From Escherichia phage UB: a stretch of 64,000 nucleotides of DNA. Below the pieces are notes generated by a model. That model made no database searches. It was given only the letters and a program-made list of their open reading frames with translations, and was not told the DNA's origin. Shown in pieces: positions 19,950 to 25,737 of this stretch. The number at the start of each line of letters is the position of its first letter. Position 1 is the first letter of the stretch. The stretch lies in sequence record MH383160; one strand, written 5' to 3'. The position numbers and the translations under genes are program-made.

Positions 19950-20591
19950 TCAATAAAAAACTGGATCTTCTTCAGTAATTGGTATTTCTCTACGCACATC
20001 ACACGAAAGAGGATCAGTAATGAATACATTCCCATCTTTATCCATCATCACATTACTTGAATGAATGTCTGGTACAAAACGCCCGTGAAACTCTTTCATG
20101 ATGTTAGCAGCGACCGTTGCAATAGCAATCTCTTCAGAATTTCCACGCATATCATTCACTGAAGTAGCGTACTGACCAGCATGTGCATAAGAATATAAAT
20201 CTCCAATTTTAGTACTAACAAAGTCATCATAATTATTTTTTTGTTTAATTATAGGATAGTACTTGTCCATCTCATACCATCCAAAGTTTCCTTGTTCGTT
20301 TGCACTGTAAATCACTGGAAGAAACTTGGTTCCTGCGTTTTCAATGCAGTACTTTGCATAAGCACGAAAACCATCCCAGCGTGAAGTGGTTACTTTAAAT
20401 GCACGTCCAGGATAGTTTTTATGTTCAACTACTACAGAGTACATCCCCATTCCAAGCAAAGTAAGTCCAGCAGCTTTAACTTGTGGAAAGATTACGCGTT
20501 CAGCATAAGGAATATCAAACTCCATCGCACAACGAGTTTTTGATGGACGCAAAATGTCAATTAAAGTTTTGAATATTTCTTGCTTAGTCAT
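19950..20591 (-). CDS. protein kinase-like fold protein (putative)
   Basis: DIHSSN (D-x4-N catalytic-loop-like) followed by VFITDP; start moved to ATG 20591 with AGAGGA RBS because ATG 20624 lies inside the promoter -10. Confidence 0.5.
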   Translation of the reverse strand: MTKQEIFKTLIDILRPSKTRCAMEFDIPYAERVIFPQVKAAGLTLLGMGMYSVVVEHKNYPGRAFKVTTSRWDGFRAYAKYCIENAGTKFLPVIYSANEQGNFGWYEMDKYYPIIKQKNNYDDFVSTKIGDLYSYAHAGQYATSVNDMRGNSEEIAIATVAANIMKEFHGRFVPDIHSSNVMMDKDGNVFITDPLSCDVRREIPITEEDPVFY

Positions 20592-20619
20592 TACTTTATC
20601 CTCTGTAGTTAATATCAAC

Positions 20620-20649
20620 ATCATAACAAAAAAGGCTGACCGAAGTCAA
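20620..20649 (-). promoter_or_regulatory. promoter in terminator-promoter cassette (TTGACT-N18-TATGAT)
   Basis: Minus strand TTGACTTCGGTCAGCCTTTTTTGTTATGAT. Confidence 0.45.
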
Positions 20650-20652
20650 CCC
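20627..20652 (-). terminator. UUCG-loop intrinsic terminator
   Basis: GGTTGAC-UUCG-GTCAGCC + U-run. Confidence 0.7.
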
Positions 20653-20660
20653 TTTTATTA

Positions 20661-21080
20661 TCATTTACAGTTTTCTATAACTATTGCACGTTTTAGTATT
20701 TTACTTTCATAAACATACTTAAGATGACCTTCTTCACGAATACGATTGAACACATATCCTAGTTTATCTTTTAGTACTGAAGCGGTATCAATGTCAAGAT
20801 TAACTTCAACCCCTCCTGTTAATTTAACTTTATATGTAAAGCTAAAAGCATCACCAGATTCAACCAATGGGACTACTTGTTCATACGTATTCAACATAAC
20901 TCGTTCATCATTAACTAAATTATATATTACTATATCACAAGTTTTTACCCCAATTTCCTCTAATGTAGGAGCATTATCTACTATAACATCTTTTACTGTA
21001 TTTGCAACCTGTTTAGCATCTGCTGCATATACATTAAAACTAAAAAGTACTAAAATAATACTTAAAAAAATCTTTTTCAT
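20661..21080 (-). CDS. secreted protein (signal peptide)
   Basis: MKKIFLSIILVLFSFNVYA. Confidence 0.6.
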   Translation of the reverse strand: MKKIFLSIILVLFSFNVYAADAKQVANTVKDVIVDNAPTLEEIGVKTCDIVIYNLVNDERVMLNTYEQVVPLVESGDAFSFTYKVKLTGGVEVNLDIDTASVLKDKLGYVFNRIREEGHLKYVYESKILKRAIVIENCK

Positions 21081-21089
21081 TATATATCC

Positions 21090-21413
21090 TTATTTTATTT
21101 TACATGTCATATCGGGTTGTGCTTGTTTATTATTTTTAAACGGATTAGGTTTTTTATCTTTCTTTTTATCTTTTAAAGGTTTTTTGTCTTCTTTTTTATC
21201 TTTATCTTTGTCTTTTTTATTTTTATCAGGTTCAGAGGGAGTATTACATTGTGCTGGGGGTTGATTAGTTGGAGTACAGCTATTGTCTGATGGGAGTATT
21301 ACTTCTTTACAATTGTAAAATAGTAAACTTTTATTTGTGGTTAAATTATGAAAACGATAGTTACGTTCATTATTATAATAAATTGTTTTAGTACTTTCAA
21401 TGTCATTGCACAT
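21090..21413 (-). CDS. hypothetical protein with Lys/Asp-rich low-complexity tail
   Basis: KKDKDKDKKEDKKPLKDKKKDKK. Confidence 0.45.
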   Translation of the reverse strand: MCNDIESTKTIYYNNERNYRFHNLTTNKSLLFYNCKEVILPSDNSCTPTNQPPAQCNTPSEPDKNKKDKDKDKKEDKKPLKDKKKDKKPNPFKNNKQAQPDMTCKIK

Positions 21414-21423
21414 TGCTACTGAA

Positions 21424-21675
21424 TCACCGGAACTCTTTTTCTATTCCCATTACATCAGTCTTACGCTCAGATAGTATACCTGAAGTATATGAATCTTTGT
21501 TGTCAAACGCATTAAATCCAATAGTTCTGTCGGTGTCGTGTATTATTCCTTTTGTATATGAGGTAGTATAGAACTCCCCATTTCTGAAATCCTGCCTTGC
21601 TACGGAGCAATGATAATCTGCACCATAAGCAGTACTGGAAAATAATACAATTCCAAATATAATATATTTTTTCAT
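21424..21675 (-). CDS. secreted small protein (signal peptide)
   Basis: Start at internal ATG giving MKKYIIFGIVLFSSTAYG with AGAGGG RBS. Confidence 0.55.
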   Translation of the reverse strand: MKKYIIFGIVLFSSTAYGADYHCSVARQDFRNGEFYTTSYTKGIIHDTDRTIGFNAFDNKDSYTSGILSERKTDVMGIEKEFR

Positions 21676-21704
21676 TGTAATCCCTCTTCTTAATTCCTCT
21701 TTTG

Positions 21705-21733
21705 TATTTACAAAAAAAGGCTGACCGAAGTCA
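21705..21733 (-). promoter_or_regulatory. promoter in terminator-promoter cassette
   Basis: TTGACT in hairpin arm, 17 nt, TAAATA. Confidence 0.4.
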
Positions 21734-21736
21734 ACC
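21712..21736 (-). terminator. UUCG-loop intrinsic terminator
   Basis: GGTTGAC-UUCG-GTCAGCC + U7. Confidence 0.7.
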
Positions 21737-21746
21737 TTTTGTTTTA

Positions 21747-23294
21747 TCATTTACCGTATTTGCTCATGATGTCCTTTTCCCAAGGAGTTACATTTCCATT
21801 TTCGTAATCACGGAAAGAGTCATCAAGTGTAGTCAATGCATAATCATATGCCTCACCGGATTCAACATCAATATCAACAGCACCATTCACTACATCAGTC
21901 CACGCTTTTTGTAGTTTACGAGCGTTGTTACCAACTTTATCTTTAATCCAACTAAGATTTCGGTTTATACTCTTCTTATCAGCACCAGCTTTTTCACCAA
22001 CATCTGCAACCCATTGCATTAATTTCTGTAGTTCGTTATGGGATTTTTCAGTCATTTGGCGGTCTTGTGACAGTTCAGCTTCCATGTCATCAATTTCTTC
22101 GTCTGAATGAACATCTTTCTGTTCAACTGCACCTTCTTCATCTGCACGCTTTAGATAACCATCTGGTGTTACCTTCTCACCATGTTCAGCTTCATACTTT
22201 TTCATAGTGTTGAATGCAGCATCCATAGCTGTTACGAAGCGGCTTTTCTCACCTTGTACATAAGATTTAAGTACGCTGTTAACAGCGTCAGATACGAGCT
22301 TAACCTTATCGTCTTTACCTTCTAAACGGTTTTCAAGTTTAGCTAGTACATTCTTGACTTGCTGTGCATTAGCACGGTCTGCTTTACCAATACTATCAAA
22401 AGTTTTAAGAATACTTTCCAGATTAACATCATCGTGTGAGTGTTCATCAAACTCAATATCATTATTTTCGTCTTCATCCTTGAGCGTTAATCCCATTGAT
22501 GTGAGGTCATCAGCAGCACTTGACATTGACATACGAACTGCACGAGAATCATTTACATCATCTACATTTTCAATTGCCATATCAATAATGTACAGTGCTT
22601 TCTCTAAGTCTGTATATTGTTTAGCTTGATTGATAATATCGTTCACAAACTTAGCACCTAAGTAATCATTTACTTCACGGAATTCGTCTTCAGACATTCT
22701 TCCACTAGGTTTGCTTGGTTGTTGATCGGTCTTTTGTGGTAAGGATTTCTGTTTACCTTCAAGTGCACGCATGATAGTACTGAATACTTCAGTAGGTTCA
22801 GTACTGGTATTTCCACTCATTGCATCAAGTACAGCTTGTGCTTTGACTTTTAATTCTTCTTTAGGTACAGATTGCAATTCTTTCACAATACCTTGGATAA
22901 GTTGTGGTTTATTAGCAAAAATCTTACCTAACTTATCAGACAGTTCTTTGACAGGGTTAACCGCCTTTGGTGCTTCTTGTTTTGGTTCTTCTTTCGCAGG
23001 AGCAGACTTTTCTTTTTCTTCACGTTCCATATCAGCTAGGCGTTGTTTTTGTGTAGCATTAAGAAGTCCCAATGAATTAACATAACGTAGCTTTTCTAGC
23101 TCAGTCATATTGGAAGTATCAGTGCCTTGTGTTGCTACTGTGTTTGCTTTACCAGCTTCACCAGTCCCCATGTTTCTAGAACCTTTAGAACCTTGACCTG
23201 CCATATGTGAATTAGGTCTGCGATTTTTTTCTGACCACTTCTCGCTGTGTCCAGAAATGGTAGCACCATTTTTTGATTTGAAATTATCTGGCAT
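21747..23294 (-). CDS. large acidic hypothetical protein (N-terminal domain paralogous to 24185..24568)
   Basis: 515 aa, Glu/Lys/Asp-rich; YVNSLGLLNATQKQ...KELQSVPKEELK shared with neighbour. Confidence 0.65.
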   Translation of the reverse strand: MPDNFKSKNGATISGHSEKWSEKNRRPNSHMAGQGSKGSRNMGTGEAGKANTVATQGTDTSNMTELEKLRYVNSLGLLNATQKQRLADMEREEKEKSAPAKEEPKQEAPKAVNPVKELSDKLGKIFANKPQLIQGIVKELQSVPKEELKVKAQAVLDAMSGNTSTEPTEVFSTIMRALEGKQKSLPQKTDQQPSKPSGRMSEDEFREVNDYLGAKFVNDIINQAKQYTDLEKALYIIDMAIENVDDVNDSRAVRMSMSSAADDLTSMGLTLKDEDENNDIEFDEHSHDDVNLESILKTFDSIGKADRANAQQVKNVLAKLENRLEGKDDKVKLVSDAVNSVLKSYVQGEKSRFVTAMDAAFNTMKKYEAEHGEKVTPDGYLKRADEEGAVEQKDVHSDEEIDDMEAELSQDRQMTEKSHNELQKLMQWVADVGEKAGADKKSINRNLSWIKDKVGNNARKLQKAWTDVVNGAVDIDVESGEAYDYALTTLDDSFRDYENGNVTPWEKDIMSKYGK

Positions 23295-23333
23295 ATCTAT
23301 TTCTCCATAAAATAATAATACCTATGATTTTAT

Positions 23334-24107
23334 TTATATATTACCATAGATATCCATCCTAGTCAATCTATATTTGTCATTATCAATGATAGTTAATAAT
23401 CTATCTATATCTTTTACGTCTATTGTTTCTGTATAACCACATTTAAACACTGATTTGTTCAAAAACTTACATTTTATTTCTTTTTTAATTATTTTTTCTA
23501 ATTCATTAATTAAATTTCCGTCATTGGAAAAATAACAAATATAAGGAACTGATCGATATTTGTTGGCATTATATTTTCTAAATCTATTTTTACAATTTCC
23601 TGTAATGCCAAATTTATATGATACTAAATTACCAATAGTATCATAAATTTCATTTATATATAAAAATCCAGGTTTGTTGATATCATAACCAGTCTTACTA
23701 CATGATGGACAATTTGTATTAGTATTAATAAAATGATTATAAGAACATTTCCAAGAAGGATGATCAATTATATCACAGTTCAATTCAAGAATAGTGTTTA
23801 TAGAGCCATTAAAAATATATTCTTTACAAGTATATTTTTTCTCTTTACATTTTTGTATAACTCTATCACGGGCAGTTTGTTCTTTGAGAATGTTTCTCCC
23901 ATTACATTCAGGACACCCAGTTCCTTTGTAAATAAACTTTTTAAAAGAACAATTCCATCGTTCGTGTTCTGGATTGGGGCATTTTAAAATTAGTCTTGTG
24001 TTCGTGTTTATATAAACAAATTCTTCACATTTGTAGTTTTTGTCATTGCATATTTTATATACTTTTTCTTCAGCTTCTTTTTGTGTCAATTTAATACCAC
24101 TAGCCAT
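23334..24107 (-). CDS. T5orf172/MUG113-type (GIY-YIG-like) domain protein with Cys-rich zinc-ribbon-like repeats
   Basis: GFLYINEIYD..YKFGITGN..RFRKY core; N-terminal CPNPEH..C, GCPECNG. Confidence 0.6.
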   Translation of the reverse strand: MASGIKLTQKEAEEKVYKICNDKNYKCEEFVYINTNTRLILKCPNPEHERWNCSFKKFIYKGTGCPECNGRNILKEQTARDRVIQKCKEKKYTCKEYIFNGSINTILELNCDIIDHPSWKCSYNHFINTNTNCPSCSKTGYDINKPGFLYINEIYDTIGNLVSYKFGITGNCKNRFRKYNANKYRSVPYICYFSNDGNLINELEKIIKKEIKCKFLNKSVFKCGYTETIDVKDIDRLLTIIDNDKYRLTRMDIYGNI

Positions 24108-24147
24108 GAAATATCATCCTTGAATCTTTGTTATTTCATATATTTAC

Positions 24148-24175
24148 TATATAAAAAAAGGTTGACCTTAGTCAA
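24148..24175 (-). promoter_or_regulatory. promoter in terminator-promoter cassette
   Basis: TTGACT in hairpin arm, ~17 nt, TATATA. Confidence 0.4.
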
Positions 24176-24178
24176 CCC
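24153..24178 (-). terminator. intrinsic terminator hairpin (loop variant), bidirectional
   Basis: GGTTGAC-CTTA-GTCAACC flanked by A7 and T5. Confidence 0.65.
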
Positions 24179-24184
24179 TTTTTA

Positions 24185-24568
24185 TTACTTCTTGAACTTA
24201 TGTTTTTCACTTTCGATTGCATTCACGATTTCATCATGAATTTTACGAAGATTGTGAGTTTTCTTTAGAGATTCATGTAATGCACGGAATGCAGAGTGTA
24301 CAGTTGCTTTAAAGTGCTCTTTAGGAGTTACTTTAAGTTTCTCGATAATATCACGTACATAAATTGGGTGATCTTCAAACACACGATTTAGCTCATGGCC
24401 TAGTGATTCTAGACTGAATGCTTTTTCACGTGAAGGGCGATCATGTGCAAGACTTTGGTCCGGTTTTAGAAGACCTAGTGAATCTAGATACTTGTGCTTA
24501 TGTGCATTGTCTAGACCAGAAATATCAACATCATGTGATGGATCTTTCTTATTCCATTTATCAACCAT
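24185..24568 (-). CDS. hypothetical protein (paralog of N-terminus of 21747..23294)
   Basis: YLDSLGLLKPDQ and KLKVTPKEHFK motifs. Confidence 0.6.
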   Translation of the reverse strand: MVDKWNKKDPSHDVDISGLDNAHKHKYLDSLGLLKPDQSLAHDRPSREKAFSLESLGHELNRVFEDHPIYVRDIIEKLKVTPKEHFKATVHSAFRALHESLKKTHNLRKIHDEIVNAIESEKHKFKK

Positions 24569-24683
24569 TTTTATAACTCCTATAAGAGATAAATTTTACT
24601 ATAATATTTATAGTTCCGTTGTCATTTATATCGAATGACATAAAACATTATATCATAATAAGAATGGTTGTCCCAAAGTTAAA

Positions 24684-25157
24684 TTAGTACTGATCAAGTT
24701 CAGATGTAAAAATGAATGCATCCATGTCTTCCAACGTAAGTTTTAAGTCTGGTACATACTTAAGAATAACGCACTCTGGCTTCTTAATAGCAGCTTGATA
24801 AGCAGCAATGGCAAGGGATTCCAACTGCTGTGCTGTATAATTTTTACGTTCTGCATTAAAAACTTTGTTTTTGATATCACCACCTGGGAGTTTTTCAAAC
24901 TCACGCATAACTGCAGTAAGAACATCGTCAGCAGTGTTACTATATACCCATTGGGGTAATTGCATTACATTATAAATCACACCACTATCATCCATCAAAG
25001 AGATCCATTTGTACCCATCACTAGCACTGAACAAACGCCCTTTTAGTACTGTGTTATTAGTTAAATTTACAAATGCAAAAATATCTTGTTCGTTAAGTTC
25101 AATACTATTAACATTTACCCAACTCATTACGATTCCCCATTCATAAATCACGAACAA
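24684..25157 (-). CDS. hypothetical protein
   Basis: 157-aa ORF. Confidence 0.55.
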   Translation of the reverse strand: MFVIYEWGIVMSWVNVNSIELNEQDIFAFVNLTNNTVLKGRLFSASDGYKWISLMDDSGVIYNVMQLPQWVYSNTADDVLTAVMREFEKLPGGDIKNKVFNAERKNYTAQQLESLAIAAYQAAIKKPECVILKYVPDLKLTLEDMDAFIFTSELDQY

Positions 25158-25737
25158 TATTCATTAAACACAATTTAGGTTTTATAGCATTCAACACCCA
25201 TATGCATTCTTTGTAAGTAGCTATTATATCATCTAAATGCTCAGTTACAATGCTTTCTTGAAAATATTCTTCATCATTGAGCTTTGCTAATTTAGTAACA
25301 TCACACGTAGGCACTATAGGTCTGGATTGTACACCCATTCCATTATTGATATTAGTGAAATGTACAAAATGGTACTTCACAACACCTTTATCTAGATTTA
25401 TTATACATGACAAATTTTCCAACTCAGTTAGTTTTTTATTACAAGTAACATTAATGAAACCAGCATTATAGGCTCTATAATCATCTACTGATATCTCAAA
25501 ATCATTACGTTCAAATATAAGTGAAATGAGTTGGTCCAGTGGTTTGACATTCATATATTTTAATGAATTTACGTATGATACTTCAATCTTAGATGAAATT
25601 ATCTTTTTACTAAGTGCCGTTAAATCTTTGTTAGATTTAACTGTTAAAACAATAGGTTTAAACCTAGAACTTTTGTTCTTTTTTGATACTTTAAAACGAC
25701 CTTTACGATTCATAATTTCCTCAATTAACAATTTCAC
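25141..25737 (-). CDS. hypothetical protein
   Basis: 198-aa ORF. Confidence 0.55.
   Translation of the reverse strand: MKLLIEEIMNRKGRFKVSKKNKSSRFKPIVLTVKSNKDLTALSKKIISSKIEVSYVNSLKYMNVKPLDQLISLIFERNDFEISVDDYRAYNAGFINVTCNKKLTELENLSCIINLDKGVVKYHFVHFTNINNGMGVQSRPIVPTCDVTKLAKLNDEEYFQESIVTEHLDDIIATYKECIWVLNAIKPKLCLMNIVRDL

What the first reader, a model, noticed from the sequence alone, without database searches (positions are those of the whole stretch)
21747..24568. T5orf172-type nuclease-like gene flanked by two genes sharing an N-terminal domain
The 515-aa acidic protein and the 127-aa protein either side of the T5orf172 gene share two N-terminal motifs, which looks like a duplication split by insertion of the nuclease-like gene, i.e. 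a homing-type insertion footprint.
Basis: seen in the sequence. Interest (0 to 1): 0.4.

Follow-up and report, generated by a model that had tools for sequence, protein, structure and literature searches.

The report
Homing endonuclease gene beside virion-protein paralogs
A selfish "homing" nuclease gene has copied itself, along with the first ~60 codons of the neighbouring virion-protein gene, into the spacer between two anciently duplicated virion-protein genes of a jumbo E. coli phage; this is an ordinary but clear example, and the duplication has nothing to do with the insertion.

Summary
The window is Escherichia phage UB, an Asteriusvirus-like jumbo phage. The three minus-strand ORFs are at the stated coordinates. 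The 515-aa and 127-aa proteins do share an N-terminal module (BLASTP E=4e-9; one PHROG hits both). Both were detected in phAPEC6 virions by mass spectrometry.

The middle gene (257 aa) has two CapR/DUF4379-type zinc-finger modules and a C-terminal GIY-YIG-fold domain of the T5orf172/MUG113 kind. This is the architecture described for phage T5orf172 homing endonucleases.

It is an insertion. About 30 relatives lack it and carry nothing (UE-S1), a 37-aa ORF (121Q type) or other small ORFs in that spacer.

The acquired cassette is window ~23111-24141. It includes codons 1-61 of the 515-aa gene, which are 65% identical to JP4. The next 357 nt are 98% identical.

The same pattern recurs with other endonuclease genes at this slot:
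- RaK2 versus K64-1
- EC.P1 (an HNH gene) versus WPEC3
- TH47 and RCIP0023, judged from protein N-termini only

Inserts that are not nucleases leave the 5' end unchanged.

The paralogs are old (25% identity), complete, separately expressed genes that sit side by side at the empty site.

Verdict: a new member of a known kind, of modest interest.

The parts
24605..24612 (-). TATAAATA (matches the T4 late-promoter consensus), 37 nt upstream of the ATG of the 127-aa gene
   Evidence: One of only two TATAAATA in the 64-kb window (13.4 expected); sequence read. Promoter function is inferred, not shown.
24185..24568 (-). 127-aa virion-associated protein (121Q gp199 / phAPEC6 gp037c homolog), the small paralog
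   Evidence: It is 100% identical to the 121Q, JP4 and SHEFM2K proteins and matches phrog_16530 at 3.6e-56. phAPEC6 gp037c gave 5 peptides in virions. The model shows a disordered N-terminus and a 4-helix domain at residues 53-126.
24153..24177 (-). Hairpin GGTTGACTAAGGTCAACC followed by T7: a terminator-like member of a repeated intergenic hairpin family; it marks the upstream junction of the cassette
   Evidence: Sequence. The hairpin family has 7 loci in the window (0.03 expected). Identity to JP4/121Q of about 99% starts at 24142-24149. TTGACT in the stem plus TATAGT 18 nt on makes a sigma-70-like site (10 of 12 matches) ahead of the endonuclease gene.
23111..24141 (-). Acquired cassette: leader, endonuclease gene, TATAAATA/RBS, and codons 1-61 of the 515-aa gene. 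It replaces 215 bp in JP4 (37-aa ORF plus terminator) and about 89 bp in UE-S1
   Evidence: The window stretch 24180-23140 is contiguous with metagenomic contig L008 at 81%. GC is 28% against 33.7% for the window.
23334..24107 (-). 257-aa free-standing homing endonuclease gene (T5orf172-type)
   Evidence: phrog_681 'endonuclease' 1.2e-42. UniRef names the identical phage UB protein 'Homing endonuclease'. dN/dS is 0.18 against the 76%-identical L008 copy. It is single-copy in the window.
23688..24095 (-). Two tandem DNA-binding modules (aa 5-72 and 73-140), each a helix plus a treble-clef zinc finger of the CapR/DUF4379/DUF723 type. C43, C65, C68, C111, C133 and C136 are invariant
   Evidence: (DUF4379 and CapR each hit in 18 of 23 relatives). 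TH47 and RaK2 homologs have four modules.
23373..23681 (-). C-terminal GIY-YIG-fold nuclease domain (aa ~143-245) of the T5orf172/MUG113 kind. Y150, G167, I168, R175, E204 and E227 are near-invariant
23331..23338 (-). Second TATAAATA, overlapping the endonuclease stop codon, 37 nt upstream of the ATG of the 515-aa gene
   Evidence: The same element precedes the gene in UE-S1, JP4, 121Q, K64-1 and L008.
23111..23294 (-). Replaced (co-converted) 5' tract of the 515-aa gene, codons 1-61. It is the inferred site, in endonuclease-free alleles, of the recognition/cleavage target
   Evidence: It is 65% identical to JP4/SHEFM2K/121Q; the available first 165 nt are 79% identical to L008; the next 357 nt are 98-99% identical to JP4/SHEFM2K. 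dS is 0.80-0.84 here against 0.095 downstream.
21747..23294 (-). 515-aa acidic virion-associated protein (121Q gp201 / phAPEC6 gp035c / RaK2 gp260 homolog), the large paralog
   Evidence: phrog_20398 7.6e-171. phAPEC6 gp035c gave 8 peptides in virions.
22755..23110 (-). The part of the 515-aa protein (aa 62-180) homologous to the 127-aa protein
22439..22753 (-). Optional internal module A of the 515-aa gene. Among the 11 genomes aligned it is present only in UB and JNE01

Best explanation
The 257-aa gene is a free-standing homing endonuclease gene. It has two CapR-type zinc-finger DNA-binding modules and a T5orf172-type GIY-YIG-fold nuclease domain. It sits in the spacer between two old paralogous virion-protein genes.

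Proposed mechanism (inferred): during co-infection, the enzyme cuts endonuclease-free genomes in or near the first ~180 nt of the large virion-protein gene. The break is repaired by copying from the endonuclease-carrying genome. This transfers the nuclease gene together with a recoded, presumably cleavage-resistant, 5' end of that gene.

Phage UB acquired such a cassette (window ~23111-24141) on a JP4-like backbone. The cassette brings its own TATAAATA element, which matches the T4 late-promoter consensus, so the virion gene probably stays expressed.

Shown: the domain architecture, the insertion, the junctions, the replaced tract, and its recurrence in other phages.
Inferred: nuclease activity, the target location, and that the cassette moved by homing.
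For: 1. Architecture.
- phrog_681 'endonuclease' 1e-42.
- Zinc-finger repeats with invariant cysteines and near-invariant Y150, G167, I168, R175, E204, E227.
- 6 of 23 relatives hit Pfam T5orf172.
- This matches the T5orf172 endonuclease architecture described in PMC10448857.

2. Insertion.
- The gene is absent from the slot in the Asteriusvirus genomes surveyed other than TH47. The spacing between the paralogs is 279 nt (empty: UE-S1, ph0011), 459 nt (the 121Q type, which carries only the 37-aa ORF; 14+ genomes) or other values. In UB it is 1080 nt.

3. Junctions.
- 99% identity resumes at 24142. On the other side identity is 65% for codons 1-61, then 98%.

4. The cassette is inherited as a unit.
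- A 76%-identical copy on L008 is again directly upstream of a UB-type 5' end, although its upstream neighbour is different.
- dS of the endonuclease gene (0.79) is about equal to dS of the 5' tract (0.84). The downstream part of the gene has dS 0.095.

5. Recurrence.
- RaK2 vs K64-1: 43% identity for nt 1-183, 98% after.
- EC.P1 (an HNH_3/NUMOD4 gene) vs WPEC3: the first 51 nt are replaced, identity is 99% elsewhere.
- TH47 and RCIP0023 also have deviant N-termini.

6. Control.
- Alleles with non-nuclease inserts or an empty slot (121Q, WPEC3, JNE01, Turkey5, UE-S1, K64-1, and largely A4) keep the common leader MP[SG][NQ]FTDKNGGNMAGHSDKWS.

7. Purifying selection on the endonuclease gene, dN/dS 0.18. 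GC is 25.6% against 33.7% for the window.

8. Precedent: intronless homing with co-conversion in T4 (PMC2988022).
Against: - There is no biochemical or genetic evidence that this protein cuts DNA, and no cleavage site is known.
- The protein itself does not reach any Pfam threshold.
- The slot also accepts non-nuclease inserts, and the upstream junction lies at a repeated hairpin. Ordinary recombination could therefore have moved the cassette.
- UB residues 45-62 resemble those of phage A4, which has no endonuclease gene here. The 5' tract is therefore itself mosaic.
- Only one close relative of this particular gene exists in about 5.8 billion proteins and none in IMG/VR, so recent spread is not documented.
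- The endonuclease-carrying alleles are few and not all phylogenetically independent (about 4 lineages).
Confidence: 0.75

Rival explanations
1. One reading: one ancestral gene or tandem duplication was split by insertion of the nuclease gene, so the shared N-terminal motifs on both sides are the insertion footprint.
For: The two flanking genes do share a homologous N-terminal module, and the nuclease gene does lie between them.
Against: - The paralogs are only 25% identical, whereas the insertion is recent: the flanks are 98-99% identical to genomes without the endonuclease gene.
- Both genes are complete and adjacent, separated by a terminator-like hairpin, TATAAATA and an RBS, in the empty-site phage UE-S1. 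About 30 other genomes have them without the endonuclease gene.
- Homologs of both are detected in phAPEC6 virions.
- Each paralog also occurs without the other: A4, K64-1, RaK2 and Munch.
- The replaced tract (codons 1-61) lies outside the shared motifs.
Confidence: 0.02
2. The cassette was moved by ordinary homologous or illegitimate recombination at a variable 'moron' slot bounded by repeated hairpins. The nuclease gene is a passenger and its activity played no part.
For: - The slot holds at least five different non-nuclease contents in relatives.
- The upstream junction coincides with a hairpin repeated 7 times in the window.
- The large gene is mosaic elsewhere too, with optional modules A and B.
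Against: - The 5' coding tract of the large gene is replaced in every endonuclease-carrying allele examined (UB, L008, RaK2, TH47, EC.P1, RCIP0023). It is replaced in none of the alleles with other inserts.
- Two unrelated nuclease families (T5orf172-type and HNH) show the same pattern at the same position.
- The endonuclease ORF is under purifying selection and its catalytic residues are intact.
Confidence: 0.13
3. The protein is a domesticated endonuclease derivative. It would act as a CapR-like transcriptional regulator of the adjacent late virion gene, or as an exclusion/defence nuclease against competing phages, and not as a selfish homing element.
For: - Relatives carry the CapR homology domain (PF21817).
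- CapR is a repressor of ICP1 capsid expression whose DNA-binding domain is homologous to those of ICP1 T5orf172 endonucleases; the title of PMC8096241 calls it a domesticated endonuclease.
- The gene abuts a TATAAATA element and a virion gene.
Against: - The distribution is sporadic (1 of ~35 close relatives), which is unlike a regulator of a conserved gene.
- The nuclease domain keeps its conserved residues.
- The co-replaced flanking tract is the signature of break repair, not of regulation.
- Exclusion of a competitor's markers is in practice the same mechanism as intronless homing.
Confidence: 0.08

Closest known systems
T5orf172-family free-standing homing endonucleases with repeated CapR/DUF723/DUF4379 zinc fingers (vibriophage ICP1, T5-like phages; Barth, Dunham & Seed 2023, PMC10448857)
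   Same: - N-terminal tandem zinc-finger DNA-binding modules plus a C-terminal T5orf172/GIY-YIG-type domain.
- Location beside a structural gene.
- The number of modules varies between homologs (2 here, 4 in TH47 and RaK2), like the in-frame repeat deletions described for ICP1 gp174.
- The gene sits at a boundary where sequence identity changes.
- 28.8% identity over 94% of its length to T5 gene T5.141, which sits upstream of pb2.
   Different: - The host lineage is an Asteriusvirus jumbo coliphage.
- The window protein itself is too diverged to pass the Pfam T5orf172 or CapR thresholds.
- No activity data exist.
T4 Seg (GIY-YIG) and Mob (HNH) free-standing endonucleases: intronless homing with marker exclusion and co-conversion (SegF, SegG, SegB, MobE; PMC2988022, PMC2330249, PMC2790892)
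   Same: - An intergenic free-standing nuclease gene.
- Present or absent among close relatives.
- A replaced tract of the adjacent gene.
- Different endonuclease families occupy the same slot in related phages. [quoted passage not shown]
   Different: - A different nuclease subfamily (T5orf172/MUG113 rather than canonical Seg GIY-YIG) and different DNA-binding modules.
- Homing here is inferred from comparative genomics only.
Endonuclease genes at the same slot in TH47 (394 aa), RaK2 gp261 (398 aa), RCIP0023 (460 aa) and EC.P1 (175-aa HNH_3/NUMOD4)
   Same: - Same position directly upstream of the large virion-protein gene, each with a deviant 5' end of that gene.
- TH47 and RaK2 share the leader AACAAAGAWTCAAGGATGAT and the N-terminus MASGI[KR]LTQ with the UB gene.
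   Different: - 35-36% protein identity to TH47 and RaK2 by tblastn over the full length.
- Four zinc-finger modules in TH47 and RaK2 against two here.
- EC.P1 carries an unrelated HNH enzyme and a shorter replaced tract (51 nt).

Membership tests
T5orf172 domain family (Pfam PF10544; GIY-YIG clan) | Significant match to the PF10544 (or sister MUG113, PF13455) profile | tested here: inconclusive
   The window protein gives MUG113 E=0.018 (16 bits against a cut-off of 22.3) and no T5orf172 hit. Of 23 aligned full-length relatives, 6 hit T5orf172 (best 2.8e-6) and 4 hit MUG113 (best 3.9e-9). Membership therefore rests on transitive homology.
T5orf172 domain family (Pfam PF10544; GIY-YIG clan) | GIY-YIG-type alpha/beta fold with the conserved Tyr, Arg and Glu positions | tested here: met
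T5orf172 homing endonucleases as described in PMC10448857 | One or more CapR/DUF723/DUF4379 zinc-finger DNA-binding modules N-terminal to the nuclease domain | tested here: met
   There are two modules with invariant C43/C65/C68 and C111/C133/C136. DUF4379 gives E=0.0011 for the window protein, below the cut-off, but DUF4379 and CapR are each hit by 18 of 23 relatives.
Homing endonuclease gene (functional definition) | Present or absent at an otherwise conserved site among close relatives | tested here: met
   The empty site is seen in UE-S1.
Homing endonuclease gene (functional definition) | Flanking sequence is co-converted, or the target site is altered, in alleles that carry the gene | tested here: met
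   UB vs JP4: 65% then 98%. RaK2 vs K64-1: 43% then 98%. EC.P1 vs WPEC3: the first 51 nt are replaced. Alleles without an endonuclease gene keep the common 5' end.
Homing endonuclease gene (functional definition) | Site-specific cleavage of the allele that lacks the gene, and nuclease-dependent super-Mendelian inheritance | not testable with these tools
   This needs an in vitro cleavage assay and mixed-infection crosses.
Paralogous virion-protein family (phrog_16530 / phrog_20398) | Both flanking proteins share the N-terminal module and are virion components | tested here: met
   The mass-spectrometry table for phAPEC6 lists gp035c and gp037c (PMC7247149). Virion association is taken from the homologs, which are 100% (small protein) and about 98% (N-terminal domain) identical.

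The most novel reading that the evidence does not exclude
The first ~60 codons of this conserved virion-protein gene may be a shared battleground for several unrelated homing endonucleases: three size variants of the zinc-finger/T5orf172-type genes, plus an HNH gene. This would hold across two jumbo-phage genera. Each invasion recodes the protein's disordered, G/S/R-rich N-terminal leader, so selfish nucleases would be the main driver of protein-level diversification of a virion component. The leader and the LGLL motif shared with the small paralog might be a virion-incorporation signal that tolerates such recoding.
Probability: 0.15. Interest if true: 0.5.

Novelty: new member of a known kind. 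Interest (0 to 1): 0.3.

Why it matters
The locus is a tidy natural experiment. Near-isogenic pairs with and without an endonuclease gene exist in two jumbo-phage genera (UB/JP4, EC.P1/WPEC3, RaK2/K64-1). In each pair, a homing endonuclease gene is tied to a sharply bounded recoded stretch at the 5' end of a virion-protein gene.

This gives a specific prediction of where T5orf172-type endonucleases cut, which can be tested cheaply. I found no cleavage-site or activity data for this gene family in the papers I read.

It also shows that jumbo phages of the RaK2/121Q group undergo the same endonuclease-driven mosaicism described for T4 and ICP1. It does not reveal a new kind of system.

Tried and rejected
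- Internal repeats in the 515-aa protein. I suspected the shared helical module recurs within it, but self-BLASTP at E<=10 found only the self-hit.
- Function of the shared domain. Pfam gave nothing significant. The AlphaFold model of the 127-aa protein (pLDDT 70; disordered residues 1-50 plus a 4-helix domain) matched only family members in BFVD. Function stays unknown beyond virion association.
- More copies of the UB-type endonuclease gene. There is one 76% homolog among 5.8 billion proteins, none in IMG/VR, and no second copy in the window.
- PDB sequence search with the family profile. It hit only DUF4379-type zinc ribbons (mitoribosomal mS66 and others) and no nuclease. The fold search was needed for that.
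- Cross-genus conservation of the endonuclease-free 5' end at the nucleotide level. It is not higher there than in the rest of the gene (JP4 vs K64-1: 78% vs 75%). There is therefore no evidence of a specially constrained target.
- The RaK2 paper for promoter or sigma-factor information. It has none.
- The first MAFFT alignment of the spacer misaligned the 3' side. It was redone with BLAST and targeted alignments.
Full report
**What the window is.** The 257-aa protein is 100% identical to a protein of Escherichia phage UB, on a 353,081-bp contig. UniRef names that protein 'Homing endonuclease'. Megablast of window 21000-25500 against the phage collection finds 36 jumbo phages (121Q, PBECO4, JP4, phAPEC6 and others). 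The records that carry a taxonomy line are classed as Asteriusvirus. Identity is 83-97%, but no record covers more than 72% of the query.

**The observation.** Three minus-strand ORFs sit at exactly the stated coordinates:
- 127 aa, 24568..24185
- 257 aa, 24107..23334
- 515 aa, 23294..21747 (pI 5.0)

The similarity between the two outer proteins is real.
- phrog_16530 ('virion structural protein') matches the whole 127-aa protein (3.6e-56) and residues 1-181 of the 515-aa protein (1.2e-42).
- A 171-aa metagenomic homolog (P0133) combines the small-protein-type domain with the leader typical of the large protein, MPSNFTDKNGANMAGHSDKWS...GSRGSRNQGTG. Relative to it, the 127-aa protein lacks the first ~14 residues and a ~29-residue G/S/R-rich segment.
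- In phAPEC6 the homologs gp035c (8 unique peptides) and gp037c (5 unique peptides, 48% coverage) were both found in purified virions by mass spectrometry (PMC7247149).
- An AlphaFold model of the small protein (pLDDT 70) shows a disordered N-terminal ~50 residues, with one short helix at the LGLL motif, followed by a 4-helix domain. Fold search in BFVD returned only family members. The module's function is unknown beyond virion association.

**The middle gene.** PHROGs places it in phrog_681 'endonuclease' (1.2e-42). Pfam hits are sub-threshold: DUF4379 treble-clef zinc finger at 0.0011 and MUG113 at 0.018.

Alignment with relatives shows two tandem ~68-aa modules. Each is a helix followed by a zinc finger. 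C43, C65, C68, C111, C133 and C136 are invariant. A C-terminal domain follows, with near-invariant Y150, G167, I168, R175, E204 and E227.

Among 23 aligned relatives:
- 18 hit DUF4379
- 18 hit CapR
- 11 hit DUF723
- 6 hit T5orf172
- 4 hit MUG113

This is the architecture Barth, Dunham & Seed describe for T5orf172 homing endonucleases. They report repeated CapR/DUF723/DUF4379 zinc fingers, modules gained and lost by recombination, and genes placed next to essential or structural genes (PMC10448857). The protein is also 28.8% identical over 94% of its length to T5 gene T5.141, which lies directly upstream of the tail gene pb2.

**It is an insertion.** In JP4, 121Q, SHEFM2K and SD-15 the two paralogs are separated by a 37-aa ORF (121Q gp200) and a terminator. 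I surveyed the spacing between the end of the small gene and residue 63 of the large one:

| Spacing | Content of the slot | Phages |
|---|---|---|
| 279 nt | empty | UE-S1, ph0011 |
| 459 nt | 37-aa ORF | 121Q type, at least 14 genomes |
| 557 nt | no annotated gene | Turkey5 |
| 777 nt | 97-aa ORF | JNE01 |
| 1061 nt | 37-aa ORF plus two small ORFs | WPEC3 type |
| 1080 nt | 257-aa endonuclease gene | UB (the window) |
| 1500 nt | 394-aa endonuclease gene of the same family | TH47 |
| 1560 nt | 37-aa ORF, a 185-aa ORF and an HNH_3/NUMOD4 endonuclease gene | EC.P1 |

The empty site in UE-S1 reads: stop codon, hairpin GGTTGACTTCGGTCAGCC with a T-run, TATAAATA, RBS, ATG.

The paralogs are therefore adjacent, complete and independently expressed genes when no endonuclease gene is present. 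Each also occurs without the other:
- A4 lacks the small gene next to the large one. So do K64-1 and RaK2.
- Salmonella phage Munch has the small gene, followed there by an HNH endonuclease gene.

This refutes the 'duplication split by insertion' reading.

**The real footprint.** BLASTN against JP4 gives about 99% identity from 24142 upward and 97.6% from 20000 to 22438. Identity is only 87% over 22754-23305.

A finer alignment resolves that stretch:
- Codons 1-61 of the 515-aa gene (23294-23111) are 65% identical to JP4, SHEFM2K and 121Q.
- The next 357 nt are 98-99% identical to JP4 and SHEFM2K.

The acquired cassette is therefore about 23111-24141. It replaces 215 bp of JP4.

The only close homolog of the endonuclease (P0002, 76% identity) lies on a 4.8-kb metagenomic contig, L008. 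There it is again directly upstream of a gene starting MPENFKSKNGATLAGHS..., the UB type, although its upstream neighbour is unrelated. Window 24180-23140 aligns contiguously with L008 at 81%.

Synonymous divergence between UB and L008 is the same for the endonuclease gene (dS 0.79, dN/dS 0.18) and for the 5' tract (dS 0.84). Codons 62-180 of UB against JP4 have dS 0.095. The endonuclease gene and the 5' tract therefore share one history, and the rest of the gene has another.

**Recurrence.**
- RaK2 (398-aa endonuclease) against its near-isogenic relative K64-1 (none): a 1439-bp segment replaces 210 bp. It includes the first 177 nt of the large gene. Identity is 43% for nt 1-183 and 98% for nt 184-540.
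- EC.P1 (HNH) against WPEC3: a 605-bp segment replaces 107 bp. It includes the first 51 nt of the gene, and identity is 99% elsewhere.
- TH47 and RCIP0023, which also carry an endonuclease-type gene here, have deviant N-termini as well.
- Every allele with an empty slot or a non-nuclease insert keeps MP[SG][NQ]FTDKNGGNMAGHSDKWS...: JP4, 121Q, SHEFM2K, UE-S1, WPEC3, JNE01, Turkey5 and K64-1, and A4 for its first ~45 residues.

This association is what is expected if the enzymes recognise or cut within the 5' end of the endonuclease-free allele, and if carrier alleles hold resistant sequence that is co-converted during repair. That is how intronless homing works for T4 Seg and Mob enzymes (PMC2988022). 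It remains an inference, because no cleavage data exist.

**Regulatory context.** TATAAATA matches the T4 late-promoter consensus (my own knowledge). It occurs only twice in the 64-kb window, against 13.4 expected. Both copies are on the minus strand, each 37 nt upstream of the ATG of one of the two virion-protein genes. One of them overlaps the endonuclease stop codon.

The cassette thus supplies its own copy of the element for the downstream gene. Upstream of the endonuclease gene the corresponding sequence is degenerate (TATAGTAAATAT). The hairpin's TTGACT plus TATAGT forms a sigma-70-like site. Promoter function is not shown.

**Verdict.** This is a new member of a known kind, a T5orf172-type free-standing homing endonuclease. 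The useful extra is that several endonuclease families have invaded the same slot, each with a recoded 5' end of the virion gene, in two jumbo-phage genera.

Noticed in passing
window 23331-23338 (-) and 24605-24612 (-): TATAAATA is strongly depleted in the window (2 copies against 13.4 expected; all 100 shuffles had at least 2). Both copies sit exactly 37 nt upstream of the start codons of the two virion-protein genes. This suggests T4-like late promoters in this jumbo phage, with counter-selection of the motif elsewhere.
   Followed up: partly
window 12567, 14738, 16020, 20635, 21720, 24161, 27403 (- strand): A repeated intergenic hairpin, GTTGACYNNGGTCARC, usually followed by a T-run. There are 7 loci against 0.03 expected. 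It looks like a terminator, its stem doubles as a TTGAC -35-like box, and one copy forms the upstream junction of the endonuclease cassette.
   Followed up: partly
window 22439-22753 and the alignment: The 515-aa virion-protein gene is mosaic beyond its 5' end. Among the 11 genomes aligned, a ~100-aa module A is present only in UB and JNE01. A ~90-aa module B is present in 121Q, SHEFM2K, TH47, WPEC3, EC.P1, JNE01 and Turkey5, but absent from UB, JP4 and UE-S1.
   Followed up: partly
L004 (Salmonella phage SD-15_S21) 2265-2812; also SD-1, SD-2 and SD-6: In the four Salmonella SD phages the large virion-protein gene is reduced to short ORFs (31 and 152 aa). Only the first 27 residues of the 121-aa N-terminal-domain query (515-aa residues 63-183) were matched. 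Either the protein is dispensable there or the assemblies are faulty.
   Followed up: no
L020 (Salmonella phage Munch) 1303-2718: In Munch the 126-aa paralog is followed by a 319-aa HNH endonuclease (Pfam HNH 2.9e-5), not by the large paralog. This is another nuclease gene at this neighbourhood.
   Followed up: partly
L009 (JGI 3300037067) 1449-2597; P0003 has four of the same zinc-finger modules, but they are fused to a different C-terminal domain that looks like a Vsr/PD-(D/E)xK-type nuclease (several relatives are named 'very-short-patch-repair endonuclease' by JGI). This would be domain shuffling between nuclease families that share one DNA-binding module. The identity of that domain was not tested.
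   Followed up: no
L018 (Klebsiella phage RCIP0023) 1496-2878: A 460-aa protein at the same slot starts like these zinc-finger endonucleases (MAKKITQKEAEERVKQKC...). Its remainder gives no significant Pfam nuclease hit, only weak matches to peptidase C39 and C58 with no stretch passing on its own.
   Followed up: no
window 19950-20624 (-): A 224-aa gene whose homologs in relatives are annotated as a protein kinase that inhibits host transcription (121Q gp205). It was not examined.
   Followed up: no
L005 (TH47, an UNVERIFIED record) 4389-4772: The 127-aa paralog is split into 53-aa and 68-aa ORFs in TH47, probably by a sequencing frameshift in an unverified record.
   Followed up: no
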